NCBI GenBank assembly: GCA_003707115.1 | Contig: PPNB01000001.1 | Coordinates: 124,001 to 188,000 of the forward strand | Origin: Tortispora ganteri | Taxonomy: Eukaryota | DNA: 64,000 nucleotides | Reading direction: 5' to 3' | Shown: positions 1 through 39,154 of the stretch, piece by piece | How the letters are laid out: the number at the start of each line of letters is the position of its first letter | Position numbering within the stretch: the first letter of the stretch is position 1 | Program-made: the position numbers and the translations under genes | The notes under the pieces: generated by a model | Told to the model about the DNA's origin: nothing | The model's input: only the letters and a program-made list of their open reading frames with translations | Database searches by the model: none

Positions 1-603
1 CTAAGTTATCTGCCGCCATAACAATTCCTCCTTTAAACTTAGTGGCTATAACTGAGGTGCCTGTCATTATCGGACTTTGCGTGTTCATTTTGCAACCTCC
101 AGATGCAGAATTATAGGGGCCATAAACATCATCACGGGGTCTTCCCCAATTATGCGGGCCCAATTCCATGATGTATCTTTAGTTCCTAGAGTTCTTGGTT
201 AAGCGCGACTGCAGTCTGTGGAGGGGGAAGTTCGCTCGTCTAAGCCAAGGAGTGTGTCATTTGCCTCACTTCTTTGGGTGTATCCATAGTAACCATGGGT
301 TCAAATTACCAATTTTATGAACGACTTCGATCCTAATTTGACCTGTTCAATGTCGCTAATATTCTTTGACTCAACATACAACCCTTGTATTGATAATGAA
401 AAATCTATTTCTACGCGAAAAGATATGAAGCAAAATAAACAAATATAAGAAAGAGTACACCCACCATTCTAAACTATCAGCACTTGCTGCCAAAGTTCGT
501 TAGAACGCATAAACAGGCCAGCAAATGCTAAAATGACCGAACGCAATTCAACAACGTCACTTAACGCATATTTCGTGGTATCAGGATATAAAAATATTTC
601 TCT

Positions 604-2373
604 TTAACACCAGAAATGATATGTACGAACCAAGAAGTTCTTTCTTGCCAATTCTTCGCGCTCTATACGTAGCTCTTCCTGAAGAGCATCCAAATCCAGC
701 TCCCGCCGACCAGAGGTGAGATCGGCAGTGCTAGGCTTGACAAATTTGGTTCTAAACCATATCTTGTAGCACAAGTAGTAGAATATGACTACCGGTGCGG
801 CAAGATATGACTGGAAGAATACTTCTGCGTCAGGAGCTTCACCTTGAGGCCACACTGATACCCAAAATGTAGCGATTAACACGAGAACATTGAAGATAAA
901 TCCAATGTACGAGCCAATTACACCAGCTTGACTTGTGAAAGGGATCTCATCGAGAGTATGTCCCTGTTTCTTCCAAGCGATCCGGAAAAGAACATGGCAT
1001 AAACAGATAGATCCCCAAGTGAAAATGGACGACAAACCGGACAAAGCAAGTAGCCAGGCAAAAATGTCACCTTCAGCTGGTGATGCAGCAACAAATCCTA
1101 AAAGACCAAAAATCAAAGTGGTGCAAACTGAAACAAGGGGACGGCCGTTGCGATCAATGTAAGAGAAGATTTTAGGAGCCATGTTTTGTTGTGCCAATGC
1201 ACAGAGGGTACGCGAGCAGCCATAAATTGATGAATTGCCGACAGACAACACAGCAATCAAAATGACAGCGTTGATTATGGAGGGGAGGACGTTGATTTGC
1301 GCATTAACAACAGCAATAACAAATGGAGATGCTTTGGCGTCTACAGACGAGTCACCAATGAGTCTTGGGTCAGTGTATGGTACTAGAAGACCAACAATCG
1401 TGAGCGCAACAATATAAAACAAGGTAATACGCCAGAACACTTGCTTGGCAGCCTTTGGCAATGTTTTACGAGGGTTGGCGGTTTCAGCAGCTGCAAGACC
1501 GACTAATTCAGTTCCAGCAAAGGAGAACGCTGCAGTTACGAAAACGCTGCAGAGACCTTTGAATCCATGGTTGAATGCGCCGGGATCTTGCCAGTAAGTT
1601 CCACCTATATATCCACCAACAGGTCCACCTCCGCAAATAATAATGATGCCGAGAATGATAAAACCAACCACTGCAATGACCTTAATTAGGGAGAAAATAA
1701 ATTCGGCTTCACCATAGCCCTTTACGCCAAAGAAATTTATAAACACAATACAGACCCAAAATATCGCGACAAAAGCGGCTGGAGATATCGATGTTGTCCA
1801 ATATTGCACTGTGATTGAGGCTGCAACAAGTTCAAGAGGAAAAACAACAAGCCATTGCATAGCATAATTCCAACCCATGGCGAAACCCCACGCAGGGTCA
1901 ATGAATCGAGTGGAGTATACTGAGAAAGCACCAGACACAGGGAAAAGCACTGCTAACTCACCAAGAGCGTGGACAGTGCAGTACAACATGATACCAATGA
2001 GACCGAAAGCAATCAATAGTGAGGCTGGCCCACCGTTACTCAATGCTTTACCCGATCCTACAAAGAGACCTGTTCCAATAGAGCCACCAATGGCAATCAT
2101 CTGAAGATGCCTGCCTTTCAGACTCCGGTTGAGAGGAGACTTAGCGAGTCTGATCTTGACGGCCTCTTCATCGAAAGTTCTACCACTCTTTCGAGACACG
2201 GCTTCTATTTCTGCTTTTTCTTCTGGACTGAACTCGTATGGTTTAAAGGAATCCGCAAATCTTTTAAACATACCAGAATTCTGATCAGAATGAGTATAGG
2301 TGACATCTCCAATATCAGAATTAGAAGAGTAATCTCCAGTTTCTTCAACTTTTGTGAACTTGTCTTCAGACAT
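604..2373 (-). CDS. GAP1: General amino acid permease (APC/YAT family)
   Basis: 589 aa with RHLQMIAIGGSIGTGLFVGSG and FSFAGTELVG motifs, about 12 TM segments, and C-terminal FWC. The upstream region has several GATAAG sites. Confidence 0.88.
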   Translation of the reverse strand: MSEDKFTKVEETGDYSSNSDIGDVTYTHSDQNSGMFKRFADSFKPYEFSPEEKAEIEAVSRKSGRTFDEEAVKIRLAKSPLNRSLKGRHLQMIAIGGSIGTGLFVGSGKALSNGGPASLLIAFGLIGIMLYCTVHALGELAVLFPVSGAFSVYSTRFIDPAWGFAMGWNYAMQWLVVFPLELVAASITVQYWTTSISPAAFVAIFWVCIVFINFFGVKGYGEAEFIFSLIKVIAVVGFIILGIIIICGGGPVGGYIGGTYWQDPGAFNHGFKGLCSVFVTAAFSFAGTELVGLAAAETANPRKTLPKAAKQVFWRITLFYIVALTIVGLLVPYTDPRLIGDSSVDAKASPFVIAVVNAQINVLPSIINAVILIAVLSVGNSSIYGCSRTLCALAQQNMAPKIFSYIDRNGRPLVSVCTTLIFGLLGFVAASPAEGDIFAWLLALSGLSSIFTWGSICLCHVLFRIAWKKQGHTLDEIPFTSQAGVIGSYIGFIFNVLVLIATFWVSVWPQGEAPDAEVFFQSYLAAPVVIFYYLCYKIWFRTKFVKPSTADLTSGRRELDLDALQEELRIEREELARKNFLVRTYHFWC

Positions 2374-13267: not shown

Positions 13268-14344
13268 ATGACTGATCTAGAGATCCAAGACACTCCTCTT
13301 GGAGATAGCGAGCCTTCGGTTTTAAATAGGATATGTAGCGCGACTAATTTTGTCAAACTTCCGCCCGAAATGATGGTTGCTGGATTTGAACGTGACACCT
13401 CAGAGGATCAAGGTCTAACCGTGCAACAATTAGTTGAGCGCAACCTCTATCAGGCTGCAGCAGATCGCATAAAGTTAGAAATAATATCTGCTGCTAATAT
13501 AGAGGCTGCATTAGACGGTTGGTATAAGCGACTAGTTTACTTGAAGAAAGCAGGTCTTTCGCGAGTCGCCACAACTGAGGCAAGAAACCTTGGCGATCTG
13601 AGCGGGCTTGATTTCCGATCGTCGGACAATAAACCTCTAGTTCCTTGGGATTTGCGAAAGCTTCTACTATTTGAAAGACTGACACAGGCTACAATTGGCG
13701 ATACGATTGCTGCTTATTACGCATTAGCTAAAGATTGCTACACGGAAAGGAACCTGACGGCTACAAAGAGCGCCCAAGACGAATGGACGGATAGACTAAT
13801 AGTACTAGGCATAGACCTAGCAGCTTGGTTGTGCAAAATGCGCTATTATTCTACTGCACAAAATGTTTTAATGTCTATGTACGAAGATCTGCCTGATAAT
13901 CAGTCTGTGGCTATAGCACTAGGGCTAATAGAAACATATTTAGGTGACGCATTTGCCGCTAAGTCGTGGTTCAGCAAAGCTAAATCTCAGAGAAATAGCG
14001 TTCTTTTGCATTCATACATATCTATTGTTGAAGGGAATTGGACTGATGCAGCTGCAATATTAAATGGGTCAATGCAATCCTCCACGGCTGACCACAACGT
14101 CATGCTGAACAATCTCGCAGTATGCAAGATATACGACGGTCAGATAGACGAGGCTATTGAACTACTCAATCAAGTTGTGAACTCGGGCTCTTTGCTCTTT
14201 CAATCTATTAAGAACCTTGCCTGGTTATACTCTCTAAATTCAGCTTCAGCAAAGAAACTCAAAAGCGACTTAATCGACTCTATAAGATTGGCTGGAACAG
14301 CTAACCTCCCTGACATCGCTTCTCTCAAATTAAATGAGAACTAA
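13268..14344 (+). CDS. TPR protein, probable TRAPP III subunit 12 (TRAPPC12-like)
   Basis: EARNLGDLS...VPWDLR motif and C-terminal TPRs (NNLAVCKIYDG, NLAWLY). Confidence 0.6.
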   Translation: MTDLEIQDTPLGDSEPSVLNRICSATNFVKLPPEMMVAGFERDTSEDQGLTVQQLVERNLYQAAADRIKLEIISAANIEAALDGWYKRLVYLKKAGLSRVATTEARNLGDLSGLDFRSSDNKPLVPWDLRKLLLFERLTQATIGDTIAAYYALAKDCYTERNLTATKSAQDEWTDRLIVLGIDLAAWLCKMRYYSTAQNVLMSMYEDLPDNQSVAIALGLIETYLGDAFAAKSWFSKAKSQRNSVLLHSYISIVEGNWTDAAAILNGSMQSSTADHNVMLNNLAVCKIYDGQIDEAIELLNQVVNSGSLLFQSIKNLAWLYSLNSASAKKLKSDLIDSIRLAGTANLPDIASLKLNEN

Positions 14345-14491
14345 GTACAGTCATTTTTACTATTACATTATACATTAATGAGCATATATAATATTGTAAT
14401 TCATATAATACCTACAACGCTGTTTTAATAGAGTCAAAGAACAAAACAAAAACAAACAATTATCTACGCACCACCCTGCATGTCCTCACCC

Positions 14492-16672
14492 TCACAGAGG
14501 TTGAACAAAATTGCTTGGTGCTAATCCAATATCACGGCTACCTTCGCCGGTATATCCGAATACTTCTACTTCCCACCATCCATCTTCTTGCTTGCGAATC
14601 ACGAGAAGCACTTCTCCTCTCTTAAAGCTCACTTCTTCTGCAGGAATCTGAGCTTGGTATTCAAACTTAGCCTTTACATAACTGATGATAGGCCTGCCAT
14701 CGCGAGATGTAGCTGGAAGTTCAACCCTTTGCCTTGAAGCCCGTTTATTGTGATATACATTCTGTGCAGACTGTGATCGTTCCATTGGCTTCTCAGCTGA
14801 AATGTCTCCAAAACCAACGTCCTTTGATAGGTTGCCATTATATGACATGGAGTGAGGAATTCTCTCTGGTGAGCCACTTCGCACCATCGTATTAGAGATG
14901 CCTCCGTTGAGCTTTTTCTCATGTAGCGCAAAATCAGTGGTTAACCCTTCGGAATTGGAGTTTGTGTCATCATTCCTGGACCACTGTTGTGGAGAATGGT
15001 TCCGTCTGACATCTCCAGGGCCTCTAGCTTTGGGAGCATTTGCAAATTGCTGAACTGAAGAGTTTTCAATGTACGATGCAATGCTCTGAGCATTGATCCC
15101 CTGAGAATCAACAGGCGACTGAAATGTGCTTTTGGAGGGAGACGAGTAGACAGAACTGGTGCTACCTGCCGTTCCAGATGTGTCCAGCTTCAAATTTTCC
15201 AATGCCTTCAGCAGTGGATCTTCTCCTGATATCAATGGAGTTGGTACTGTTTTAGATGAAACAGTACCCATAGATGATGACTTTTTCATCTCACTTCTCA
15301 CCGGTGATGCACTCCTAGAACTTGTCGCAGATACAATAAATGCCTCAGAATCTTTTGCTGAGATCTGAGAATCTGAATCCATCAAATCGGCGTGAAGGCT
15401 TTTGCTGGAATTCCTACGCTTGATATGATCCAGAAGAGATTTAGGCGGTTCTTCTTTGGCATGCATAGAAGTAGCTCTGGACCTGCATCGTCTGTCAAAT
15501 GGAGAGTACCACACTTTATTCAAATTGTCGTTTGATTTCGAATCTGAAATGAGATGGTCGGTCAATGTTTCCTCAGATACTGCAGAAGGAGGAGCCGATA
15601 GATCAGCGATTGCAATCCCAAATGAATTAACATTATCGTTAATGGAGGCTGATGTGGCCTGAGAAACTGTTGAGGCTGTACCAGGGCTCGGCGATCTATT
15701 GCTAAGACGTGAGTCAGGTCTGTTATTAAATGGAAGTAAAGTCATTGTATCCAATGGATTTACCGTGGGCTTTGTGAAGCCCAAATTAGAGCCAATTTGC
15801 CTATTGCTCTGATTTGCTTCGTGCTCTCCTTCAAGATAATTGATAAACACTGGAGCAGGAGGTTGCTCTTTACCTGTGGCATTTTCTGTAATAAACTGGC
15901 CAATGTCATCGGATACAATGCACTTCTCCAACTGTTGACGAATGTTCTCACTGGCTTGATCATCTTCAACACATACAGTTGAGCATATATTAGAATAGTT
16001 CCACAAGCTTATTTTCAAGAAATCCAATCTTTCTTCTTCCATGACCTGAAACTTGTCACAAGCAAGCTCCCATTCCACGTTCCAGCGCTCGACAGTTTCG
16101 GAAAGTGTTCTAATTGCCGCCTGATACTCGCGCTGAGAAACAGTGGCATTTATTTGGGCTTTTTCCAGGCGATCATTATTTTTCTGCAAGTCTTTACCTA
16201 GGAGCAGGTTGCTTTGTGCGTTGCATACATTTATCATGTTGCTGTCGCTCTCAAACCGTTCGCGGACCTTCTCTAAAGTGCGAGACTGAGCATTCTTGCT
16301 CTTGCGAAGTTGTTCGATAGTGCCTTCGACAGTCTTGCGGCGGTCTCGAATACTACCTGCAAAAGCACTAAGAGGCTGTAAAAGTTCTAGATAAATTTGT
16401 TCAGCGGCATTAAGATGAGTTTTGGCACTCTGTTCAGTCTCAATCCGCACTTTTTCACAAGCTTTCTTGAAGTTTCCCGATTCACCACCTCCAAGGGTTT
16501 TTCTAGACAAATGCATCATCTTCTTTGCATAATCTTCTTCAATAGCTTTCCTTTCTCTGTAGAATCCGATCATATCATCACATGTTGCTTTCGCAGCATG
16601 CATGCGATTTAGAAGAATATCGACGCCTGCATCATTAGAATCCCAAAAGTTCTTCGAAAACGATAAACTCAT
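14492..16672 (-). CDS. HOF1: F-BAR/SH3 cytokinesis protein (Hof1/Cdc15/Imp2 family)
   Basis: F-BAR start SFSKNFW...ERKAIEEDYAKK, a Ser-rich middle, and a C-terminal SH3 (QEDGWWE, GLAPSNF). ATG at 16672. Confidence 0.82.
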   Translation of the reverse strand: MSLSFSKNFWDSNDAGVDILLNRMHAAKATCDDMIGFYRERKAIEEDYAKKMMHLSRKTLGGGESGNFKKACEKVRIETEQSAKTHLNAAEQIYLELLQPLSAFAGSIRDRRKTVEGTIEQLRKSKNAQSRTLEKVRERFESDSNMINVCNAQSNLLLGKDLQKNNDRLEKAQINATVSQREYQAAIRTLSETVERWNVEWELACDKFQVMEEERLDFLKISLWNYSNICSTVCVEDDQASENIRQQLEKCIVSDDIGQFITENATGKEQPPAPVFINYLEGEHEANQSNRQIGSNLGFTKPTVNPLDTMTLLPFNNRPDSRLSNRSPSPGTASTVSQATSASINDNVNSFGIAIADLSAPPSAVSEETLTDHLISDSKSNDNLNKVWYSPFDRRCRSRATSMHAKEEPPKSLLDHIKRRNSSKSLHADLMDSDSQISAKDSEAFIVSATSSRSASPVRSEMKKSSSMGTVSSKTVPTPLISGEDPLLKALENLKLDTSGTAGSTSSVYSSPSKSTFQSPVDSQGINAQSIASYIENSSVQQFANAPKARGPGDVRRNHSPQQWSRNDDTNSNSEGLTTDFALHEKKLNGGISNTMVRSGSPERIPHSMSYNGNLSKDVGFGDISAEKPMERSQSAQNVYHNKRASRQRVELPATSRDGRPIISYVKAKFEYQAQIPAEEVSFKRGEVLLVIRKQEDGWWEVEVFGYTGEGSRDIGLAPSNFVQPL

Positions 16673-16817
16673 GATGTTTGAACAGTTATTACAATCCAAA
16701 ATGTATCTTCAAAAACTTTTATCGGTTGAACTAAATGAATCAGACAAGAAAGATAACAAAATGGCGAAAGGACAAAGGAGAAATTAAAGAGCTAGTGAGC
16801 CTAAATCGGTTATATTG

Positions 16818-16843
16818 TGTTTATATTTATCCTAATGGGGAAA
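16818..16843 (-). promoter_or_regulatory. Composite Mcm1-forkhead (CLB2-cluster) element upstream of the HOF1-like gene
   Basis: Minus strand TTTCCCCATTAGGATAAATATAAACA versus consensus TTWCCYAAWNNGGWAAWWNRTAAAYA. Confidence 0.6.
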
Positions 16844-17297
16844 CGTCCCTAATTAGTTATAAGGCCGGGTAAATTACCAGCCCTAATCCACTTTAATGCC
16901 TAGATTACTGTTCCTAACATTTTCTTGACAACCATCTACCACGCAGTCAACCACTCATAATAATTTTTGAATATCATACTACAACTATCATCATACTTAA
17001 TCATTCACGGTCCTTATTGACTTTAATTTAGCTGGTGGAGTTTATTTTCATTTTTTGATATTCATTCTGTACATTTACCCGTGCTTCATTGAAAACACAA
17101 CGCCGTTACGAACAGTGCTACCAAAGCTTTTTCCCCACTTGTGATAGAAGGCTTTCAAGTTATAATATATTCCTTCTGATATATTTCGGTTGGTATTTTA
17201 TTTCTTGAAAGTAAATAGCTATTATTGATCTGTGTCTTTTATTTCTAGTGATTTTCTGAATTTCTCCCAGGCATTTATTCAAATTACGAGGATAACC

Positions 17298-20200
17298 CTG
17301 GATTTCTCAAGCAGAGAAGTAATTGCTGCTCAAGTTTGTCTTTTAGTCAATCAGCCCGAGAGATCTCCTTCAGAATCTGTTGACTTTAAGTCTATTTTTG
17401 AACTTTTAGCTACTGTCGATTTAGAAACTTATCAAGTGGTCTTAGATCGTGTTATCTCACGTATAGACTGCAGCGTCCTCCCGGAACAACTTACTCCTGC
17501 AGAAGTCTTCTTAAAAACTGAGCTTTCTAGAGCTAAATTAGACAAACAGATTGCTCTTATCTGGTGCTCTCTGATAGATAATTATTTGTCCTCAACCCCA
17601 CTTTCACTTGGTGTTTATTTACTATTTAAGCGCTGCTTCTTTGAGCATCTCCCTGCTATTTTTGCGCTATCTGGCCGGACATCCCATTACAAGGCATTAG
17701 TTGCATCTCTCGCGTCCCAAGTTTCAGAAGCTCAATTTGACTATATTGATAATAGTCAACTAACTGCTCAAATTCAGACCGATAAAGTTTCTGACGATAG
17801 CAACATGCCTACATCTCGAATTGATAAAATTCGCGAAGCCGGCCCCACGCTACTGAAGAATCATGACTTTTTTATCAAAGAACTAACAGCAGATGGTTCT
17901 CTGACTACAATGGAGCTTGCAACCGTATTGTCATTCACTACATTTGAGCATTCTTGGTCAGGTATGTCTCTTGGGGCTTGTCTTCGTACAGCTTTCCCTA
18001 GAGAAAACTGGCCATTGATTGTTGCTCACCTTGATAAAGTACCCGATTTTGCTGTAAGATCACCTCAAGACCTTGCTAATATGTTTGTCGCTCTTCAAGC
18101 TATTGCTCCTGATAGCACACTTATACATACTTTCCTTACTGTACGATGGTCTAACGCTGTGCTTCGCAACGCTATTTTGCAACAAATTTTTCTCTTATCT
18201 CCTGAAGATTTCAACTTTGCAGATACTAATCTAGTTAAAGTCGTTTCTTCTTATGAATTTCCTGCTAATGACCATCGATTTGATATGGAAATATCGAGGC
18301 TCAGACCTGAAGTTTTAAATATATTGGACGTGATTCGTTTCCTTTTTGATTGTGCAAATGAAAGGGCTCATAACGAAATTGCTGCTACTATATTGGATAG
18401 ATCTGTAAAGATACTTCCAGAACTGATTTTTATTGGTGCATTGAAATGCCCTAAGCCTTGGACTCCATTGCAAGACAGAGCTATCACTAGCCTGTTTGAT
18501 TTGTTTTTCTCAGGACATCCCTCTGAGGTTTTTGTATTCTCAATTCTTTTTAACATTGATGAGTCTTTCTTGTTGAACATGTTCGTTGATTTATTCTCTA
18601 GAACGTCTACTGTTATGCCTAGAATTGTTGAAATTTCGCAAGAAATCGATCGAGTGGAAGAAATAGCGCGCTGCAAGTCTTTAGGCTTTTCCATAGAATT
18701 TGCTTGTGTCGCTGCAGGTAGAAACGCTCTTGCTTTGAATACATTCTTATTGGAGCGCTACGAATTGCTTGGAGAAACATTCGTTAACGCTTTATTGATG
18801 TTCTTAGATGTGCGCTCCTCGCAGGATTATTCTGATCTTCAGAGCAATCGAGATTCTGTGACTATATTATCTCTCCCTGTGGTGTCTTTTTGTTTGGCAT
18901 TTCTTTCTTCCTTATCATTGGGTCCTGAGCAAATTGAAAAGCTGCAAATCATACAAACTCAATGCTTACAAACGTATTCTCGACTTGTGAATTGGGGCCA
19001 AGGGTTTGACGACGTTATTCTCATGAATTCTAAGTCGAATTCGTTTTCTCCGTTTATTGAACGCGAAATGAAAGAATCATACCAAAAACTCTATGAACAA
19101 CAAATGACCATTGGTGACTTCATCATATATCTCCAATCACTGAAAGAATCCCGAGACCCTACAGATCAAGATGTCTTTGCATGTATGATTCACTCTTTGT
19201 TTGATGAATATAGGTTTTTCCCTCAGTACCCTGTCTCAGCTTTAGCTACCACTGCCGTTCTATTTGGTTCATTGATTCAGTATAGACTTATTGATGGAAT
19301 TGCTCTTTCCGTTGCATTTCGATACATTTTGGATGCACTAAAAGAATCTCCAGACTCTAACATGTACAAGTTTTCTCTGCAGGCTTTGCTTCAATTCCAG
19401 ATGAGATTACCTGAATTCCCAGAATTTTGCTCAGTCCTAGCACAAGTACTTACTTTGGATATGCTTCAGCCTCAACTCTATGAAAAGATCCGTGAAATTT
19501 CTCTCAGTTACAACAAAATCGCTGCATCTGACTCCAGCGTCCCAGTCCTGGCTCCGACCTCTATTTTTTCCTGCGTAAATGTCCGTCCTGATACGTCCGG
19601 TATACTTGATGAAGCTGAAGCCATAGATGATAAGGTTTTATTAATCATGAACAATGTCTCTAAGAGTAACATTGACGTTAAGGTAAAGGATCTGGTTGAA
19701 ATATTGGATATTCGTCAGTTTCGTGCATTTTCCAAGTATTTGGTTGAACGCGTTAAGTTTGAACCAAATAATCAAAAACTCTATTCTCAAATTTGCTTTG
19801 CAATTGCTAATCCACTTCTTGATTATAAGATACTACGTGAAACTTATGTTGCCATATTGAATCTTATGTCTTCTGACAACATTACTTCTTCTTCCACTGA
19901 AAGAAATCATCTTAAAAATTTAGCTTCTTGGCTTGGAATGATCACTCTCGCTCAAAACAGACCAATTTTACACAAGAATGTTTCTTTTAAGGATCTTCTG
20001 ATTCAAGGATATAATTCCGATAAGCTTATGGTGGTATTGCCTTTTGCTTGCAAAGCATTGGAGCATACAGCTAGCTCTATTATTTTCAAACCTCCTAACC
20101 CGTGGACTATGGGTATTCTGAAATTATTGGTTGAGTTTCATAGGTATGCCAACTTGAAACTGAATTTGAAGTTCGAAATTGAGGTCCTTTTCAAGGTACT

Positions 20201-23200
20201 TAAATTAGATATTGATGACCTTGATCCGTCTACTTCTCTCCGAGAAACACTAGCTGTACGTGAGCAAGTTGAAGCAACCATTGCAGCTTCTTCCATTACG
20301 AAAGGTATGGACAACCTAAGTTTGCAGCGAATGGATCAGGCCCCTCTTAGCCCTTCTAGTCGGTCTGCGATAGCTGCGGAGCCTTCTTTCAGCTCTCAGG
20401 CACTTTTGGCTGCTCGATTTGAAATCAGTGGAAGTTCGGTTTTTGCAACACAGCCACCCATGAAGAAAGTGTTTATTCTTGCGCTTGAAAAAACAGTTCG
20501 CGAAGTTATTGACCCTGTTATTGAACGTTCTATTTCTGTTGCTTGTGTCACGTCAAGATGTCTTATAGCTAAAGACTACGCTTTAGAGTCTGACGAAAAG
20601 AAACTGATGGATGTGAGTTCAAGGCTAGTTCAGCGACTAGCCAGTAGTCTGTCCATGGTCACTAACCTTGAAGGGTTTCATGCTGCCTTGGAAATAAATA
20701 TTCGAGCAATTTTGCTTTCTAGTGGAGTGCCAGAACCAAGTATACCTGCGGATTCCGTTTCAATGGCTGTTAATGACAATGCTGCTACTATATTAGCAAT
20801 TATAGATGCTGCTGTGAAATCGCGTGCTGCTCAAGAGGTAAATGAAGTAATCATTCCTTTGATATCAGCTAGAGTGCAACATCGTGAAAAGCACCCTGAT
20901 GAACCTTTCATTGACCCTGTGATTTCCAAATTTTCCCTCACATTGCCTGAACCTTTGAGCCTTTCGCTCTCTTCTGGCCCGAGCTTGCAGAGTCGTATTT
21001 ACGAGAATCTTGGTCAACAGCCTGCCGGAACTCAGTCTGTAAGACAAGGCGTTAATACGTTCTCTCCTGGAAACGTTGAGTCAATCATTCAACCCTATAC
21101 TCAATCCCCTAAATCGAATAATTTTGCTGCTTTGCTGGAAGGAGCACATGGCGATCCTAAAATTGCTAATCTTCCTGATGGAGTAAATGATGAATTGGCA
21201 GCAATCGATCAAATCATGGCAACAGTTGATAATGTAGTTAAAGAGGCTGTTGCTCAAGTCTCTACTCATTTGGAACAGCTTTGCGAATTTTGCAAAACGA
21301 GGTTCTCGAAGGACATATCTATTTCCGAACTTCCTGACGAAGGGCCAGTCAAAAATGGTGTTGCTTTAATAATAAACACTATAAATGATTTTGTTTCGCA
21401 TCCAGCTGCAGTCGAGCTTTTTGCGCTGAAGTGCTCTGAAACGATAATCAATATGCTATTCACCTATTATGATGTGAGGATTGATAGGGAAATGGTGGCA
21501 TTTTGTCTTGACAGACTCTGTGATTTGTCTCCTGGCGTCACCAGGGATATAATACGCTGGCTGGTTGAATCAAAGGATGAGAGGAAGTACAATGTGCCGG
21601 CAATTTTGACCTTAATAGAAGGTGGATTTGTCAGCCCACCTGAGTTCGATGTTCTTATTTGTGACCAGATATCAGATGAGAACCCTCTGGCAGTTTCGTT
21701 TATATGCGATCTGATATCTGAATCTGTACTTTCAACTCCCCCTATTGCTTTGCGCACTGACTTCACTGCCTGTTTACAAGCATTGTACGAATACCACATG
21801 ATTCGACCAAATAATGCAAAGGTCTCTGGTCTTTTTGAAGCGCTTTCCAATGCCAAACATACTTTAAATGACGCACCTCCTGGGCTTTCTAAACAGATCA
21901 TTAGAGAAGAAATGGGTGTTGTTTTTGCAGAATGGATCCGACTCACTCAACATCCAGCTCAAACCTCCAAATTACTGAACATATTCATTTATCAAATGAT
22001 TGAAGAAGGTGTGTTTTCTAACTTAGAGAGCTTGAGCTTGTTTTACCGGGTTGGTGTTGAAATGGCGGTCGATGGTTTCATCAAAGTTCAAGACGGCCGT
22101 ACAGGCAGTGATGAGGTATACATTCCTATTGATGCTATGGCTAAATTGATTGTGCGAAGCCTTTGTGTGATTGACTCTTCTGAGAATTCTCTTGGAGTAA
22201 GTGGCTACTTTAAAGTTGTACTTGCCGTGGTCACCGCGGTTTTTGCTCACAGACATGAGAGTATGGGAGCTTCATTCAACGAAAAACCATTTTTCCGTCT
22301 ATTCTCAAGCATGTTTTCAGAATGGAGTGCGTTGGCTTCACCCTCTTTGCCTAATCCTGGCATTGATGACTATGAATTTTATGAACAAATTAGCAATACT
22401 CTCAAAAGCATTCAACCGATTGCATTTCCCGGATTTACTTTCGCGTGGTTAAGCTTGATATCTCACAGGTCGTTCATGCCTATAATATTGTCATTTCCAA
22501 ACTGTTCCGGTTTTCCGTATATGTTTGGACTGATGGAAGCTGCACTGAAATTTTTCAGGCTATATCTAATTCCGGAAACGATGCCGAATTCGGTAAAAGT
22601 GGTGTACAAAGGATTCTTACGCATTGTACTCTTACTTTTACATGACTGTCCTGAGTTTTTGGTTGGGTATCATTATGAGTTATGCGCTCTGGTGCCTTCT
22701 GAATGTACACAGTTGCGAAACATGTTTTTATGTGCGTTTCCCAAAGCCATGACATTACCGAACCCCTTTACACCTGACATTAAGATGGAGAACATTGCAG
22801 GAATCAGTAAATCGCCTTTTATCCTTGGTGATTATGTTTCTATCTTAAGCAAAACGAAAACTAAAAGGTGTGTTGATGATATTATTTTGAACCGAGATGT
22901 CACACCGGGGAAAATATCACCTTTGTTAGAGAGTTTACGGATTCCACAGCACGACGAGCCTGGATTAGGATTCAACAAGATTTCCACAAGTTCTTTGGCG
23001 GTTAATGCTTTGATGGTATACTTGGGAGTGTTAGCAACGTCAGATTTTCGCTCTACATATGCTAATGATGATAGATCGAAGCTTAATGTGCACGGTATTC
23101 AATATCTCATAATTTCTAAGATCATTGAATATAGTGGATGGGAAGAAAGCTATTTCTTACTTAGTGCTATGGTTAATCAACTGAGATATCCGAATAGCCA

Positions 23201-23471
23201 TACGCAATACTTCTCAACTGTTTTGCTCTCGTTATTCAACGGAACCTGGCATGGCCATAAGAAGCAAGAAGTGCAAGAACAAATTACTCGTGTTCTATTA
23301 GAGAGAGTTATTTGCAGTCGTCCTCACCCTTGGGGAGTTCTTGTTACATTCACAGAACTTTTGAAAAATCCTATTTACCAATTTTGGAATCTTGGATTCA
23401 TCAGAAGTTCGACTGAAGTTGAGAAACTATTTGGAACGCTCTACAATCACATTAGCATTCCAGCAGCATGA
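17298..23471 (+). CDS. NOT1: CCR4-NOT scaffold Not1; proposed CUG start at 17298, first AUG at 17805
   Basis: LFDEYRFFPQYP, LKNLASWLG, FKPPNPWT, QLRYPNSHT and RPHPWG motifs. The frame is open from at least 17232, with no ATG until 17805. Confidence 0.93.
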   Translation: MDFSSREVIAAQVCLLVNQPERSPSESVDFKSIFELLATVDLETYQVVLDRVISRIDCSVLPEQLTPAEVFLKTELSRAKLDKQIALIWCSLIDNYLSSTPLSLGVYLLFKRCFFEHLPAIFALSGRTSHYKALVASLASQVSEAQFDYIDNSQLTAQIQTDKVSDDSNMPTSRIDKIREAGPTLLKNHDFFIKELTADGSLTTMELATVLSFTTFEHSWSGMSLGACLRTAFPRENWPLIVAHLDKVPDFAVRSPQDLANMFVALQAIAPDSTLIHTFLTVRWSNAVLRNAILQQIFLLSPEDFNFADTNLVKVVSSYEFPANDHRFDMEISRLRPEVLNILDVIRFLFDCANERAHNEIAATILDRSVKILPELIFIGALKCPKPWTPLQDRAITSLFDLFFSGHPSEVFVFSILFNIDESFLLNMFVDLFSRTSTVMPRIVEISQEIDRVEEIARCKSLGFSIEFACVAAGRNALALNTFLLERYELLGETFVNALLMFLDVRSSQDYSDLQSNRDSVTILSLPVVSFCLAFLSSLSLGPEQIEKLQIIQTQCLQTYSRLVNWGQGFDDVILMNSKSNSFSPFIEREMKESYQKLYEQQMTIGDFIIYLQSLKESRDPTDQDVFACMIHSLFDEYRFFPQYPVSALATTAVLFGSLIQYRLIDGIALSVAFRYILDALKESPDSNMYKFSLQALLQFQMRLPEFPEFCSVLAQVLTLDMLQPQLYEKIREISLSYNKIAASDSSVPVLAPTSIFSCVNVRPDTSGILDEAEAIDDKVLLIMNNVSKSNIDVKVKDLVEILDIRQFRAFSKYLVERVKFEPNNQKLYSQICFAIANPLLDYKILRETYVAILNLMSSDNITSSSTERNHLKNLASWLGMITLAQNRPILHKNVSFKDLLIQGYNSDKLMVVLPFACKALEHTASSIIFKPPNPWTMGILKLLVEFHRYANLKLNLKFEIEVLFKVLKLDIDDLDPSTSLRETLAVREQVEATIAASSITKGMDNLSLQRMDQAPLSPSSRSAIAAEPSFSSQALLAARFEISGSSVFATQPPMKKVFILALEKTVREVIDPVIERSISVACVTSRCLIAKDYALESDEKKLMDVSSRLVQRLASSLSMVTNLEGFHAALEINIRAILLSSGVPEPSIPADSVSMAVNDNAATILAIIDAAVKSRAAQEVNEVIIPLISARVQHREKHPDEPFIDPVISKFSLTLPEPLSLSLSSGPSLQSRIYENLGQQPAGTQSVRQGVNTFSPGNVESIIQPYTQSPKSNNFAALLEGAHGDPKIANLPDGVNDELAAIDQIMATVDNVVKEAVAQVSTHLEQLCEFCKTRFSKDISISELPDEGPVKNGVALIINTINDFVSHPAAVELFALKCSETIINMLFTYYDVRIDREMVAFCLDRLCDLSPGVTRDIIRWLVESKDERKYNVPAILTLIEGGFVSPPEFDVLICDQISDENPLAVSFICDLISESVLSTPPIALRTDFTACLQALYEYHMIRPNNAKVSGLFEALSNAKHTLNDAPPGLSKQIIREEMGVVFAEWIRLTQHPAQTSKLLNIFIYQMIEEGVFSNLESLSLFYRVGVEMAVDGFIKVQDGRTGSDEVYIPIDAMAKLIVRSLCVIDSSENSLGVSGYFKVVLAVVTAVFAHRHESMGASFNEKPFFRLFSSMFSEWSALASPSLPNPGIDDYEFYEQISNTLKSIQPIAFPGFTFAWLSLISHRSFMPIILSFPNCSGFPYMFGLMEAALKFFRLYLIPETMPNSVKVVYKGFLRIVLLLLHDCPEFLVGYHYELCALVPSECTQLRNMFLCAFPKAMTLPNPFTPDIKMENIAGISKSPFILGDYVSILSKTKTKRCVDDIILNRDVTPGKISPLLESLRIPQHDEPGLGFNKISTSSLAVNALMVYLGVLATSDFRSTYANDDRSKLNVHGIQYLIISKIIEYSGWEESYFLLSAMVNQLRYPNSHTQYFSTVLLSLFNGTWHGHKKQEVQEQITRVLLERVICSRPHPWGVLVTFTELLKNPIYQFWNLGFIRSSTEVEKLFGTLYNHISIPAA

Positions 23472-25371
23472 AGAGCGTATGCATGATTTAGTATAAATTG
23501 CATGTGACTTATTACTACCGAAGTGATGTTTTATCTTCAGTAGTGGCATAAGTCTGAATCTATAACTGATTGAATTTTATATAATATGATCTAATATAAC
23601 ATATATCACGTGATAGGGTAGTCTTGAGGTGTCTTTAAAAGTTTCTGTACTTCATCTACGACCTACCTGATTTGGCGATGTGTGCTAATAATGTTGCTGT
23701 GAATTAGCCGATATTGTTTGAGAGTTTAAGCGGTCTCTGCAGGCTTAGAAGTGATACTGAGTAGAGAACAGATCTATGATGCAGTTATATAAGAGCAAAA
23801 ACAGCAGTCGCACTGCGGAGACACCGAAATGTACAGCACCAAAAAGAACGCAACTGGTGCTACTATTGAGTATCAGCGAAACTCTAACGGACGGGTCTAT
23901 GTTAATGCATGCGGAGCGCTTATGTTTTTATGACTGAATGGCTATCACTGGACCAATTGCCAATGATGTGTTTTAGTGGAATATATGCAAGCAATAACTA
24001 AATCTTTAAGCAAAGATACAGCAAATGAAAAATTCAAGGCAGGCTTATCATTAAGCGAGCGGCAAACCCTAATAAGGAAATTTAGCAGGTTTGGAACTAC
24101 TACTACTACCACGGAAACAAAACTATGTTAGCTCGGTTAGATGTTAAACTCAACGAGATCAGTAAATGGTGAAATGGAATTTTTGACATGATGTCCGCAA
24201 ATTCAAGCGAGACACTGGATAAGTTCATCTACTCACTGTCTGCTGTTGTTTCCCGAAACGTTGATCGAAAAGTGTGAAGCTTTGACATATGTTGGCCGGA
24301 TGATGAGGTCCGAGTTGCTAGCCAGCAATAGTAGCGTGAGCTCCTCCTTCAGTGTGCTTGAGATACCGCTGGCGCTCTTCTATACTTTAGCACATGTATT
24401 CAGACAAACATCAATCAGTTAACTAGAAATTTTGAGGGTAAGTGACATAAATCGAATAATGAAATATCAGGCAGAAGTATTCGTGGTCCTTTAGTGAATC
24501 AATAGAGTTCAAAACTTGAGTATCTCATAATTAAAGATCATATACCCGTAGTTAACGGGCAAGCCACTATTGCGATCGAAATACATGCAAGCATGCAGAC
24601 TCACAGTCATAGCTAGTTGTAAAGGCGAAATGAGACAGAATATGTTGTGGCAACTTTTTAAATTAAACTGCTAGATAATTGAGATGCTGAGGAAGTGATG
24701 CGAGCTTGAGGCTTTGACCTAATGGGGTTGGGTCGTAAGCTTTTACGGTGACTTTTAGCAACGTCGGGGTTTGTATCACACTAGTACACGAAGAAAATCT
24801 TTGTTTGGTCGAATTTAATCATTAACTGCAACCGCTGAAAGAACAATGCAAAGATATAGAATTAGTGTGAGCTTCCTTATTGGCGCTGTTATCGCTTCTC
24901 TCACTAGAAGGCGGGAAGCGCTGGGCTACTCTTGCTTTTGACCGGAAACTAATTTAAGGTTTGCGCTTTACAAGAAGAATTGCCAACTGGTTTTGGCGTT
25001 AAAGAGCTTAACAATTTTAATAGGGTTAAAGTTACATTAAACCAATCAGGTTTATCGATTATTTCAATGTCGTTTTACTATTGGCGTGTTTCCGAACAAT
25101 TGATCCCAATAGGTGGGAAAGATACTTCGTGGTTGGCAGTAGTCCCACCCATTCCCCTTACTTTATTATCTTTCTCTCCTTACTTATTCCCTTTCCCAGG
25201 ACATATTCCCACAGAAGTGTCGAAGAGTTACTATTATTAATTCTTCCTTCTTCCCGCCACCTTTCTGTTATTATTTTTTTGTCGGCCTTTTATTTTGATC
25301 GCCGCATAATAAAAATTATTTTCCTTTAAAAAATTTCCTATCTCCTGCACTCCTTTATTCCTATCCAATTG

Positions 25372-26584
25372 GTAAGTATCCTCCCTACTGCATGTCATCA
25401 TTTAGATATCTGGCCCGCCCCCGTTCGCTTCCCGAAATATGTCTTCACCTGCTCAACCACAATACCCGCTGGTCTATAGCTTTTTAATATCCACTCAACG
25501 ATATGTCGTAATACATAAATATGGTTTGTCTATTTCTTATTTCTATCTAGTCTGCAGGACTTTTTCGCACGCACTTCTTAACACCTATTTCCCGTCAGTT
25601 TGACTCTACGTGATTGGCCATACCTCAAATTTATCGAATGTTCGAATCATCAGCACTTATTCAACTAGATGAAAAAGAAACTTGATAAAATTCATAACTG
25701 TCTCATCTCGAGCCCGTTTTACATATTTCTTTCCTTCTTGCATATTCGAGTTCTTATCTTTCACGTTTTCCGAAGTCGTGCCCTAGTGAAACTAACTACG
25801 TTTCCTTATTTACAGTTGTTGAAGCTTTATAAGCCGGCAATATGTGTGAATCAACCTTTTTAGTTAGTTTATCTCTAAACAGCTGAAAGACAGAAATTTA
25901 AGACGGAACTGAAACCGAACTTCGCGATGTGTCGGGCCTCGCATCCTTTCTCAACCCATTTTGCCGCTCGTACAACCGAGAAATTTGAGTTTTCGGACAA
26001 GTCGATAGAAGTCGAATTCGGCGCTAGAGATGAATGAATACTATTTTGCGAAGACAGATTAATTTATATTTTCCGAGATATCCGTCACTTTGCTTTTGAA
26101 CCGGCTAATAAATCATCGCTCCGCACCGGTTCCCTTGAAGAATACTCCAGTATCTGCTCCGTATACTTCATTATTTCAATGCACCACCGGGTTTCTCCAG
26201 ATTATCTTGCTCCTTGGCGCGGCCTTATTGCTCGGATGCTCTTTTATCTTTTTTTCGCTATCGTATAATGTTCATCAACAATGTGGAAGGTTCCGAAGAA
26301 CTGTCCGATTTTTGACCCTTGTGGATCGGATCTCCTTCAGTTTCTACCATTTCTGCTTTCACTGCTAGCCAGCGATTTGATTATATATAAACTCCTATGC
26401 TTTAAGTGTCAACGTCTCTAACCTTGGTTGAAGTATTACTTTGTTTCAGATAGACTTTGGCTATTTCAAGGGTTCGCTATAAGGGTCTCCCCGGACATAA
26501 GAACTGATTCACATACCGTTTGAATCTGCAGTATATCATCCTCTGGTATTATCATTGAAATTCAAACAATACTAACCAATACAG
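25372..26584 (+). other. Probable long 5'UTR intron of SFP1 (1213 nt)
   Basis: GTAAGT donor at 25372, perfect TACTAAC at 26570, and CAG acceptor ending at 26584, 26 nt before the ATG. Confidence 0.5.
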
Positions 26585-26610
26585 AAAATCACAACATCAT
26601 TTTCAGCGAT

Positions 26611-38052: not shown

Positions 38053-39154
38053 ATGTCTACGCAATCCGGCATCAGCGGTAAGTGCAGTTCCACTATGAGC
38101 GTTAACTAGCTTAAGAACTAACAGGAAAATAGCTTCCGAAGAACTGCTTTCTAAGTTTAAGGATTTTGTCGCCAGTAAGTCTCGTGCTGTTGTAGCGAGA
38201 ATCCATAACGGTAAGTTTTCACCTATATCCTTCTTTCTTGAGCAATCAACGTCTTGTTCCTCCAGCAACTAACAACCAGAATCCGTTATACCGCTGACAG
38301 ACATTAATGCGAAGGAGACACCAGAGTCAGACTTTGCACAGCTCGCAGATATTGTCCAAGACTCTTGTTCATATGTTTTCTACAGGGAACACGATGGACC
38401 CGACGGCCTCGTCTTCATATCGTATGTCCCAGATCACGCCCCTGTCCGCCAGAAGATGCTCTACGCGTCAAGTCAGAATTCGCTCATGAGACAGCTTGGC
38501 TCAGATCGCTTTGGCAGACACTTGTTCGTCACTGAGCTTGCCGAATTCTCTACAGAGGGCTACCTTTCCAGCAAGAAACATGAAGCCCTAGCGGCCCCTC
38601 TGACTCGAGAAGAAGAAAGTCTGCTCTATGTAAAAGAAAAAGAGGCGGATTCCCTCAGAGGCACCAATCAGCGAAAATCACATATTGGCTCTGCAGGCGT
38701 CCAGTTTCCTGTGACTGAGGATACGTTGGAGACTCTTAGATCTTTATCTCCCGCAGATCTCGTGCAGCTGGAAATCGATTTCGAACAAGAAGAGATCAAG
38801 CTAGCCAACAAGACCAATACATCGGTAAATGAGCTCGGAACAACTCTTGAATCAGAAAATCCAAGATTTTCTTTTTACATGACCCCAGAGAACAAACTGG
38901 TATTCATATACACCTGTCCTGGCACCTCGAAGATCAAACATCGAATGGTGTACGCATCTACAAAGAGCGGTGTGATTTCTCAAGCCAAGTCAGCAGGCAT
39001 AGATATTTTTGATACGTTCGAAACCTCCGAACCAGAGCTTGTTGCCGAGCAACTGATGTTCATCATAAATCCTCCTCCAGTCCCTTCAGCAACGAAGTTC
39101 GCCAGACCTCAACGACAAAGACCAGTCAGACCAGCCAGACCATCTGAAACATAG
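38053..39154 (+). CDS. TWF1: Twinfilin; exons 38053-38077, 38133-38210, 38280-39154
   Basis: Spliced product MSTQSGISASEELL...SYVPDHAPVRQKMLYASS, with a second ADF-H domain containing RMVYAS. Both introns read GTAAGT..ACTAAC..AG. Confidence 0.9.

What the first reader, a model, noticed from the sequence alone, without database searches (positions are those of the whole stretch)
16899..17807. NOT1 probably starts at a non-AUG (CUG) codon, behind a 906-nt AUG desert, giving long and short isoforms
Seen in sequence: there is no ATG in any + frame between the ATG at 16896 and the in-frame ATG at 17805, where roughly 14 would be expected at 1 per 64 nt. The Not1 frame is open for about 190 codons upstream of that ATG. 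It encodes VIAAQVCLLV, which resembles the 'AQVFLLL' N-terminal motif I recall from fungal Not1. Just before it is an in-frame CTG at 17298 in strong context (ATAACC-CTG-G), and an in-frame ACG lies at 17286. Recalled: budding-yeast Not1 is made as long and short forms from two start codons about 160 codons apart; here the spacing is 169 codons. Inference: near-cognate initiation makes Not1-long and leaky scanning makes Not1-short. That would tie CCR4-NOT scaffold isoform balance to start-codon stringency, and automated annotation would truncate the gene.
Basis: partly seen in the sequence, partly recalled or inferred. Interest (0 to 1): 0.8.

Follow-up and report, generated by a model that had tools for sequence, protein, structure and literature searches.

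The report
NOT1 long form lacks AUG start
In this Tortispora yeast the first folded domain of the NOT1 scaffold protein is encoded upstream of the gene's first ATG, most likely starting at a CTG codon, a natural variation on the two-start arrangement already shown for baker's yeast NOT1.

Summary
There is a 909-nt ATG-free stretch (16896 to 17805), the longest in the window (next 476; 0 of 300 simulated windows reach it). The NOT1 frame is open for 192 codons upstream of the first ATG, against at most 61 for 24 other ORFs.

The 169 codons from CTG 17298 have the same codon usage as the rest of NOT1. They align at the N-terminal motif of NOT1 orthologues. With an orthologue alignment they fold as a helical domain matching human CNOT1 from its residue 2, followed by a disordered linker that ends at the ATG.

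A related species' contig has a 1-nt indel 5 nt upstream of the CTG and only one in-frame 3-nt indel, in the linker.

The ATG-free two-start architecture is published for S. cerevisiae NOT1 (leaky scanning, M1/M163; Pillet 2022). The new element is that start 1 is not AUG.

Translation from the CUG is inferred, not shown. There are no RNA data, and I could not see the relative's codon at 17298. The ATG desert is equally expected if the long form has been lost. In S. cerevisiae an ATG-to-CTG change at this start behaves as a loss-of-function allele.

CUG-started long form: about 0.6. Long form lost: about 0.2. New variant of a known kind; moderate interest.

The parts
16899..17297 (+). ATG-free leader, presumed 5' UTR of NOT1, non-coding in all three frames
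   Evidence: No ATG; no ATG in 9 of 5000 local-composition simulations. Codon-usage score is negative in all frames: -0.47, -0.35, -0.53. The relative X3 has non-triplet indels at 16901, 16906, 16909 and 16916. The transcription start is unknown.
17226..17228 (+). Last in-frame stop (TGA) upstream of the NOT1 frame
17293..17293 (+). Site of a 1-nt deletion in the related organism's contig (X3). It puts everything upstream, including ACG 17286, out of frame there.
   Evidence: table 4
17298..17300 (+). CTG, the proposed near-cognate start of the long isoform. A at -3 and G at +4. It aligns with Met1 of a fish CNOT1 (P0146), and the conserved Gln is residue 12 in both.
   Evidence: The structural alignment starts at model residue 1 against human CNOT1 residue 2. 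Its use as a start is inferred.
17298..17738 (+). Coding region for NOT1 N-terminal helical domain 1 (model residues 1-147), MIF4G-like
   Evidence: Codon-usage score is 0.219 in frame against -0.53 and -0.77 off frame; the rest of NOT1 scores 0.217 +/- 0.065. AlphaFold2 with a 45-sequence alignment gives pLDDT of about 80-93, with a dip to 62 in the block for residues 21-30. VIA-align to 8bfi_A gives Z 22.9, model 1..542 against chain 2..661. hhalign gives P 0.006, and 0 of 200 shuffles reach that score.
17739..17804 (+). Coding region for a disordered linker (model residues 148-169) between domain 1 and domain 2. It holds the relative's only indel in the extension, an in-frame 3-nt deletion at 17780.
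   Evidence: pLDDT about 43 for residues 148-168; table 4
17805..17807 (+). First ATG, in frame, A at -3. Start of the short isoform and of the annotated T. caseinolytica model.
   Evidence: The same or a neighbouring alignment column holds a Met in 7 of 35 orthologues.
17805..23471 (+). NOT1 CDS as an annotator would call it (1888 codons): HEAT, TTP-binding, CAF1-binding, DUF3819, ARM/connector and Not1 C-terminal domains
   Evidence: Pfam; 94% identity to P0003 over 1888 residues with no gaps

Best explanation
This is the NOT1/CDC39 gene of a Tortispora yeast. It has the same two-start design that was shown experimentally for S. cerevisiae NOT1. An upstream start gives a full-length scaffold carrying N-terminal domain 1. 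Ribosomes that scan past it start at the next ATG, which sits at the end of the domain 1/domain 2 linker, and make a shorter scaffold. No ATG in any frame lies between the two starts, so scanning ribosomes are not diverted.

In this species the upstream start is not AUG. The position that matches Met1 of other NOT1 proteins is CTG 17298, with A at -3 and G at +4. A minority of scanning ribosomes would start there (decoded as Met) to make Not1-long, 2057 residues. Most would continue to ATG 17805 and make Not1-short, 1888 residues.

Shown here: the ATG-free interval, the open frame, its coding-like composition, its NOT1-domain-1-like fold, and the position of the indels in a relative. Inferred: that the mRNA includes 17298, that the CUG is used, and that two proteins exist.
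For: 1. The ATG-free stretch is real and non-random, both in the leader and in the extension.
2. The frame is open 192 codons before the first ATG; 24 other ORFs in the window reach at most 61.
3. Codon usage of 17298-17804 is 0.219 per codon in frame. The rest of NOT1 gives 0.217 +/- 0.065 (35 windows), and the off frames give -0.53 and -0.77.
4. MAFFT places EVIAAQVCLLV on the N-terminal motif IVxAQVxFLLSTL of the orthologues, and places the CTG residue at Met1 of fish CNOT1 P0146. hhalign against a 16-sequence N-terminal alignment is co-linear (7-88 against 7-93), P 0.006, and 0 of 200 shuffles reach the score.
5. AlphaFold2 with 45 sequences gives residues 1-147 as helical at pLDDT of about 80-93 (one 10-residue block, 21-30, at 62), a linker 148-168 at 43, and the Met at 170. 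The best structural match is human CNOT1 in 8bfi_A: Z 22.9, 462 aligned, rmsd 18.6, model 1..542 against chain 2..661. Yeast Not1 4b8b_B, whose alignment begins at chain residue 192, covers only model 196..600. The paper on 8bfi describes domain 1 as residues 1-230, a linker, and domain 2 as 250-660 (PMC9902336, passages).
6. The relative X3 shows all 11 of its gap letters in 3000 nt: six indels in 16754-16916, a 1-nt deletion at 17293 (5 nt before the CTG), one 3-nt in-frame deletion at 17780 in the predicted linker, and none in 17805-19400.
7. The T. caseinolytica model P0003 starts at the equivalent Met. No database protein contains the extension. This suggests by inference that the missing ATG is shared within the genus.
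8. Precedent: S. cerevisiae Not1 is made as M1 and M163 isoforms by leaky scanning, with no ATG in any frame between the two starts. This was tested with M163L/A and inserted out-of-frame ATGs (PMC8970588, passages).
9. No canonical intron signals lie in 16600-17330. GTAAGT...ACTAAC...YAG sets do occur elsewhere in the window.
Against: - There is no RNA or ribosome evidence; no RNA run holds the stretch.
- The relative's letters at 17298 were not seen. Only 40 of 251 mismatch rows were printed, ending at 16776. Conservation of the CTG and a dN/dS estimate for the extension are therefore unknown.
- The ATG desert in the extension is also required if 17298-17804 is now just 5' UTR of the short form, so it does not favour CUG use.
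- In S. cerevisiae, ATG-to-CTG at NOT1 codon 1 (M1L) was isolated together with early frameshifts and a stop as a suppressor. That implies too little long form from a CUG there (PMC8970588). [quoted passage not shown]
- Sequence-only tests of homology of the extension are weak or negative. An hmmsearch with a 13-sequence profile gives E 7.6. The best phmmer hit among 187 N-termini has E 0.22. A PDB sequence search matches only residues 217-531.
- The single-sequence fold of the extension is poor, mean pLDDT 50.9. The confident model therefore leans on the alignment.
- No unusual RNA structure lies after the CTG: z 0.51 and 0.11 for the two stretches downstream of the CTG, and -1.43 for a stretch spanning it.
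Confidence: 0.6

Rival explanations
1. The long isoform has been lost. An ancestral ATG1 mutated to CTG, only Not1-short is made from ATG 17805, and 17298-17804 is a still-intact relic that now serves as ATG-free 5' UTR.
For: [quoted passage not shown] An ATG-free path to 17805 is needed in this reading as well, so the desert is explained. No purifying selection could be measured because the mismatch list was cut. No protein database entry carries the extension.
Against: The frame is intact over 169 codons, and its codon usage cannot be told from the rest of NOT1. The relative has only one indel in the extension, in frame and in the disordered linker, while the stretch 16754-16916 has six non-triplet indels. 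If the T. caseinolytica annotation means the ATG was already missing before these species split, then neutral decay at the intergenic rate seen in 16673-16776 (24 mismatches in 104 nt) should have produced stops and frameshifts (inference). The domain still models as a packed helical repeat.
Confidence: 0.2
2. The extension is translated, but from another or several near-cognate codons rather than specifically from CTG 17298. Candidates are ACG 17286, ATA 17292 and ATT 17322.
For: In-frame near-cognates with A at -3 exist at 17286 (ACG), 17289 (AGG) and 17292 (ATA), and ATT lies at 17322. The frame is open from 17229 in this organism.
Against: The relative's 1-nt deletion at 17293 puts every codon upstream of it out of frame. 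ATT 17322 lies inside the first predicted helix and the conserved motif. In S. cerevisiae, removing 28 residues, but not 20, impairs growth at 37 C (PMC8970588).
Confidence: 0.08
3. There are separate transcripts. Most or all NOT1 mRNA starts downstream of 17298, for example from the TATA-like run near 17161, so the extension is promoter or rare-transcript sequence and the ATG-free leader is chance.
For: TATAATATAT lies at about 17161-17170. No RNA data are available. The transcription start is unknown.
Against: Both the leader and the extension are ATG-free beyond chance (9 and 12 of 5000), which has no purpose if they are not scanned. S. cerevisiae shows a single NOT1 mRNA species, as cited in PMC8970588. 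The coding-like properties of the extension remain unexplained.
Confidence: 0.07
4. An upstream ATG-containing exon is spliced onto the frame. An example is ATG 16735 to donor GTGAGC 16795, joined to the CAG acceptor at 17270, which is in phase in this organism.
For: The join 16794|17271 is in frame and the 20-codon exon is open (sequence). GTGAGC at 16795 is the only GTRNGH donor-like site in 16600-17330.
Against: In relative X3 the ATG at 16735 is destroyed (16736 T>A). Over 16736-16776 the relative shows 12 mismatches and a 1-nt deletion (16754), and a further 1-nt deletion at 17293 breaks 'exon 2'. There is no ACTAAC-type branch site before 17270. The only CTAAC, at 16914, precedes a CAG at 16944 whose downstream sequence runs into stops. 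The donor is unlike the GTAAGT sites of candidate introns elsewhere in the window.
Confidence: 0.03

Closest known systems
S. cerevisiae NOT1/CDC39 translational isoforms (M1 full-length, M163 major form) made by leaky scanning (Pillet et al. 2022, eLife, PMC8970588; passages read)
   Same: It is the same gene. An upstream start gives a form with the N-terminal domain. A second in-frame ATG lies about 160-170 codons downstream (162 in S. cerevisiae, 169 here). No ATG in any frame lies between the two starts. The second start lies just before the part solved as the yeast Not1 N-terminal domain: the alignment to 4b8b covers model 196..600.
   Different: S. cerevisiae uses ATG for start 1, whereas here the homologous position is CTG and no in-frame ATG exists upstream. 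In S. cerevisiae ATG-to-CTG is a loss-of-function suppressor allele. The isoforms were shown by Western blot there and nothing has been shown here. The partner of the N-terminal domain (Caf130 in S. cerevisiae) could not be looked for, because no genome is held for this window.
Human CNOT1 long and short isoforms and CNOT1 N-terminal domain 1 (review PMC12746107, passages; structure paper PMC9902336, passages; PDB 8bfi, 8fy3)
   Same: The layout is domain 1, then a linker, then domain 2. The model aligns from its residue 1 to CNOT1 residue 2. The review states that the long human form has at least 235 extra N-terminal residues and that the origin of the two forms is unknown. Fish CNOT1 P0146 has no Met between residues 1 and 236, and that Met falls in the linker zone of the alignment.
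   Different: Sequence similarity in domain 1 is not detectable by phmmer. Domain 1 here is shorter, about 147 residues against 230. Whether Tortispora has CNOT10/CNOT11 is unknown. The vertebrate start 1 is ATG.
Near-cognate-initiated N-terminal extensions with leaky scanning to the first AUG. My recalled examples are yeast ALA1 and GRS1 and mammalian MYC and EIF4G2. General reviews PMC5666671 and PMC9082881 were seen only as search listings and abstracts.
   Same: There is an in-frame open extension upstream of the first AUG. A near-cognate codon in good context sits at its 5' edge. No AUG lies between the two starts.
   Different: Here the extension is an ancestral, conserved domain that has an AUG start in other lineages. 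It is not an added targeting peptide. Use of the CUG is untested.

Membership tests
NOT1/CNOT1 scaffold of CCR4-NOT | Pfam domains CNOT1_HEAT, CNOT1_TTP_bind, CNOT1_CAF1_bind, DUF3819 and the Not1 C-terminal domain, in order | tested here: met
   E values from 1.2e-24 to 1.9e-118, all above the curated cut-offs. 94% identity to T. caseinolytica CANCADRAFT_717.
NOT1/CNOT1 scaffold of CCR4-NOT | N-terminal helical domain 1 (MIF4G-like) preceding the linker and domain 2, encoded here by 17298-17738 | tested here: met
   Met by structure. The AlphaFold2 model has pLDDT of about 80-93 over residues 1-147, with one block (21-30) at 62. VIA-align to 8bfi_A spans model 1..542 against chain 2..661, Z 22.9, rmsd 18.6, 462 aligned. 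Sequence tests are weak: hhalign P 0.006 with 0 of 200 shuffles reaching the score, but hmmsearch E 7.6, phmmer E 0.22 and no PDB sequence match. The single-sequence fold is poor.
Leaky-scanning two-isoform NOT1 (S. cerevisiae type) | No ATG in any frame between start 1 and the in-frame start 2 | tested here: met
   0 ATGs in 17301-17804; 12 of 5000 simulations and 3 of 5000 codon-order shuffles are ATG-free.
Leaky-scanning two-isoform NOT1 (S. cerevisiae type) | Start 1 is an AUG | tested here: not met
   No in-frame ATG lies between the stop at 17226 and 17805. The homologous position is CTG.
Leaky-scanning two-isoform NOT1 (S. cerevisiae type) | Two protein isoforms made from one mRNA | not testable with these tools
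   No RNA run is listed, and there are no proteomics data.
Non-AUG-initiated N-terminal extension | Open in-frame extension upstream of the first AUG with coding properties | tested here: met
   192 open codons against at most 61 for 24 other ORFs; codon-usage score 0.219 in frame.
Non-AUG-initiated N-terminal extension | Purifying selection on the extension and a conserved near-cognate codon at its 5' border in related species | tested here: inconclusive
   The indel pattern fits: a 1-nt deletion at 17293, and only an in-frame 3-nt deletion at 17780 within the extension. The substitutions and the relative's codon at 17298 were not printed, because the list was cut at 16776.
Non-AUG-initiated N-terminal extension | Initiating ribosomes or N-terminal peptides at the near-cognate codon | not testable with these tools

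The most novel reading that the evidence does not exclude
Start-codon choice on NOT1 is an ancient, conserved rheostat. In 16 of 35 orthologues, from fish to budding yeasts, domain 1 contains no Met and the first internal Met sits in the domain 1/domain 2 linker. Tortispora has pushed this rheostat to its extreme by replacing AUG1 with a CUG. The amount of the scaffold that can dock the N-terminal module would then depend directly on start-codon stringency (eIF1/eIF5 levels, stress). The same leaky-scanning logic would explain the human CNOT1 long and short forms, whose origin a 2025 review calls unknown.
Probability: 0.35. Interest if true: 0.65.

Novelty: new variant of a known kind. Interest (0 to 1): 0.45.

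Why it matters
NOT1 is the scaffold of the main eukaryotic deadenylase. Its N-terminal domain recruits an optional module: Caf130/Cal4/Btt1 in S. cerevisiae and CNOT10/CNOT11 in animals. That module defines a functionally distinct sub-population of complexes.

If the long form here starts at a CUG, the share of complexes carrying that module would be set by near-cognate initiation efficiency. The same ATG-to-CTG change that is a laboratory suppressor allele in S. cerevisiae would then be a natural state.

Practically, gene models for this genus (the T. caseinolytica entry of 1888 residues) would lack a conserved domain of about 170 residues.

The wider Met-free pattern in domain 1 suggests a simple, testable origin for the two human CNOT1 isoforms.

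Tried and rejected
- Whole genome of the window: none is held. Partners of the N-terminal domain (Caf130, CNOT10, CNOT11) could therefore not be sought.
- RNA evidence: no RNA holder is listed for 15000-24999.
A mismatch 'budget' gives only a loose bound. There are 211 unseen mismatches in 16777-19400. The neighbour's coding sequence diverges at 16 in 272 nt, and the intergenic stretch 16673-16776 at 24 in 104 nt.
- Extension alone against 5.8 billion proteins: none of 66 candidates at similar length and none of 1337 at longer length scored E <= 0.01.
- The first search, on region 1-420, found only P0003.
- Profile of 13 distant N-termini against a six-frame translation of the window: the extension scores E 7.6, not significant.
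- phmmer of the extension against 187 N-termini: best E 0.22.
- PDB sequence search: only residues 217-531 match.
- ESM Atlas: best score 0.88, bacterial hypothetical proteins, recognition 1249; uninformative.
- Single-sequence AlphaFold2 of the extension: mean pLDDT 50.9, not searched further.
- Alignment A2 (182-residue fragment against full-length proteins) scattered the fragment over the whole length and was discarded.
- RNA hairpin after the CTG: z 0.51 and 0.11 for the two stretches downstream of the CTG and -1.43 for a stretch spanning it; not unusual.
- The promoter/terminator scan uses bacterial-type patterns and is not informative here.
- No tRNA genes in 14000-27000.
- Spliced ATG exon: rejected.
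- Earlier scan notes: none.
- Literature searches for a non-AUG NOT1 start: 'Not1' + 'non-AUG' gave 19 papers, 15 listed, none on this by title or abstract. 'CDC39' + 'near-cognate' gave 0 papers. A search for 'Tortispora' with non-AUG terms listed no paper holding 'Tortispora' among the 10 shown.
Full report
**What the window is.** The stop-to-stop frame 17229..23471 (+) encodes a 2080-residue protein with the full NOT1 domain series: CNOT1_HEAT, TTP-binding, CAF1-binding, DUF3819, ARM/connector and the Not1 C-terminal domain (E 1.2e-24 to 1.9e-118). Its nearest database relative is Tortispora caseinolytica CANCADRAFT_717 (P0003, 1888 residues). P0003 is 94% identical without gaps, and its Met1 aligns with the window's first ATG at 17805. 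The window therefore comes from a Tortispora species other than T. caseinolytica. The divergent upstream neighbour (14492..16672, minus strand) is an F-BAR/SH3 protein.

- On the + strand, ATGs lie at 16896 and 17805 with none between. This 909-nt gap is the longest in the window; the next longest is 476.
- 0 of 300 Markov-simulated windows reach 909.
- With local composition, 12.1 ATGs are expected in the 906 nt, and 0 of 5000 simulations have none.
- The leader (16899-17297) is ATG-free in 9 of 5000 simulations and the extension (17298-17804) in 12 of 5000.
- Only 3 of 5000 codon-order shuffles of the extension avoid out-of-frame ATGs.
- No 507-nt window in the rest of NOT1 is ATG-free (0 of 5160).
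- The frame is open 192 codons upstream of the ATG, against at most 61 for 24 other ORFs.
- Contigs from two runs of the same organism agree with the window throughout 17229-17805.

**Is the extension coding?**
- *Codon usage.* The extension 17298-17804 scores 0.219 per codon in frame. The rest of NOT1 gives 0.217 +/- 0.065 over 35 windows. The two off frames give -0.53 and -0.77, like off frames of real CDS. The leader 16899-17228 is negative in all frames.
- *Sequence homology is weak.* A profile of 13 distant N-termini does not find the extension (E 7.6). phmmer against 187 N-termini gives at best E 0.22. The PDB sequence search matches only residues 217-531. Searching the extension alone finds nothing in the large protein collection.
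- *The weak alignments are co-linear and sit at the very N-terminus.* MAFFT puts EVIAAQVCLLV on the IVxAQVxFLLSTL motif and ETYQVVLDRVISR on the EVYxxFxRRLI block. hhalign against 16 N-termini gives score 22.1, P 0.006, residues 7-88 against 7-93, and 0 of 200 shuffles reach that score (maximum 20.0).
- *Structure.* With a 45-sequence alignment, AlphaFold2 models residues 1-147 (counted from the CTG) as helical repeats at pLDDT of about 80-93 (one 10-residue block, 21-30, at 62). Residues 148-168 form a linker at about 43, and the Met is residue 170 at the start of the next domain.
- *Structural matches.* The best match is human CNOT1 in the CNOT1-CNOT10-CNOT11 module: 8bfi_A, Foldseek E 2.1e-09, and VIA-align Z 22.9, rmsd 18.6, 462 aligned, model 1..542 against chain 2..661. 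Yeast Not1 4b8b_B aligns only from model 196. The paper on 8bfi describes domain 1 as residues 1-230, an extended linker, and domain 2 as 250-660, with domain 1 necessary and sufficient for CNOT10-CNOT11 binding (PMC9902336, passages).
- *Caveat.* The single-sequence fold of the extension is poor (mean pLDDT 50.9). The confident model therefore depends on the alignment.

**Where would translation start?** A contig of a related organism (X3; 254 mismatches and 11 gap letters in 3000 nt) covers the whole stretch in one piece. All its indels were listed:
- six non-triplet indels in 16754-16916;
- a 1-nt deletion at 17293;
- a 3-nt deletion at 17780;
- none in 17805-19400.

The 17293 deletion lies 5 nt upstream of the CTG. 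It puts ACG 17286 and every other upstream near-cognate out of frame in that species. The 17780 deletion is in frame and falls in the predicted disordered linker.

CTG 17298 is then the only near-cognate codon before the first conserved helix; the next is ATT 17322, inside that helix. Counted from the CTG, the conserved Gln is residue 12, as it is in fish CNOT1 P0146. I could not see the relative's letters at 17298 because the mismatch table was cut at 16776 (40 of 251 rows).

**Splicing.** In 16600-17330 the only GTRNGH donor-like site is GTGAGC at 16795, and the only CTAAC is at 16914. GTAAGT...ACTAAC...YAG sets occur elsewhere in the window. One join is in frame in this organism: ATG 16735, donor 16795 and acceptor CAG 17270. 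In the relative that ATG is destroyed, the 'exon' region up to 16776 carries 12 mismatches and a frameshift, and 17293 breaks 'exon 2'. I reject this model.

**What is already known.** Pillet et al. 2022 (PMC8970588, passages) showed the following for S. cerevisiae:
- Not1 is made as a minor full-length form and a major form starting at M163, by leaky scanning.
- They noted that no out-of-frame ATG lies between the two starts.
- They tested the mechanism with M163L/A and inserted out-of-frame ATGs.
- Residues 21-153 bind Caf130.
- One of their suppressor alleles is M1L (ATG to cTG), grouped with early frameshifts and a stop.

A 2025 review (PMC12746107, passages) states that human CNOT1 also has two isoforms of unknown origin. 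The long one carries at least 235 extra N-terminal residues. The review suggests this may be common in eukaryotes. The ATG-free two-start design is therefore known. What is new here is the absence of an AUG at start 1. My searches found no paper on a non-AUG NOT1 start.

**Weighing the readings.** The desert inside the extension is needed both if the CUG is used and if the extension has become 5' UTR of the short form. It therefore does not decide between these two readings.
- *For continued translation:* the intact 169-codon frame, coding-grade codon usage, the indel pattern, and the inference from the T. caseinolytica annotation that the ATG was already missing before these species split.
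- *Against:* the S. cerevisiae M1L result, the dispensability of the domain, and the lack of any RNA, ribosome or substitution-rate data.

My estimates are:
- CUG-started long form: 0.6
- long form lost: 0.2
- another near-cognate start: 0.08
- a downstream transcription start: 0.07
- splicing: 0.03

**In passing.**
- Across 35 orthologues that carry the N-terminal motif, the region before the linker holds 78 Met where 199.5 are expected from the rest of each protein.
- The first internal Met falls in domain 1 in 16 of 35 orthologues, in the linker/Met170 zone in 16, and beyond it in 3.
- The linker group includes a fish CNOT1, Neolecta, Basidiobolus, a rust, Cyberlindnera, Pachysolen and Candidozyma.
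- This rests on protein sequences only; out-of-frame ATGs were not checked.

Noticed in passing
proteins P0005-P0158; window column of Met at 17805: NOT1 domain 1 is Met-poor across eukaryotes: 78 Met observed against 199.5 expected in 35 orthologues. In 16 of 35 the first internal Met lies in the domain 1/domain 2 linker zone. That group includes fish CNOT1 (P0146, Met 1 then 236), Neolecta, Basidiobolus, a rust and several budding yeasts. This hints that leaky-scanning isoforms are widespread and could explain the human CNOT1 short form.
   Followed up: partly
window 16550, 16680, 17044: Contigs of both runs of the same organism (X1, X2) differ from the window at two bases, and by one base in the T-rich stretch at 17044. 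These are either small assembly errors in the window or strain differences. None touches the NOT1 frame.
   Followed up: no
window 16896-16928: The last ATG before the desert opens a 10-codon ORF (ATG...TGA). The relative has four indels inside it (16901, 16906, 16909, 16916), so it is not conserved. The transcription start probably lies downstream of it.
   Followed up: partly
window 38078-38279 (+), upstream of ORF 38456..39154: There are several GTAAGT...AACTAAC...YAG sets, and the ORF has 61 open codons upstream of its ATG. This is probably an intron-containing gene whose first exon lies upstream. These sets show what canonical introns look like in this genome.
   Followed up: no
proteins P0066/P0191/P0192 (Cyberlindnera fabianii), P0007/P0158, P0004 (Dipodascopsis tothii, 'partial'): Public NOT1 models of the same or near-identical genes differ by about 120-230 N-terminal residues (1919 against 2150 and 2153; 2005 against 2124). 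Start-site choice for NOT1 is therefore inconsistent in annotations more widely.
   Followed up: no
window 23472-26610: There is a stretch of about 3.1 kb downstream of NOT1 with no ATG ORF of 120 codons or more and no tRNA. Its content was not examined.
   Followed up: no
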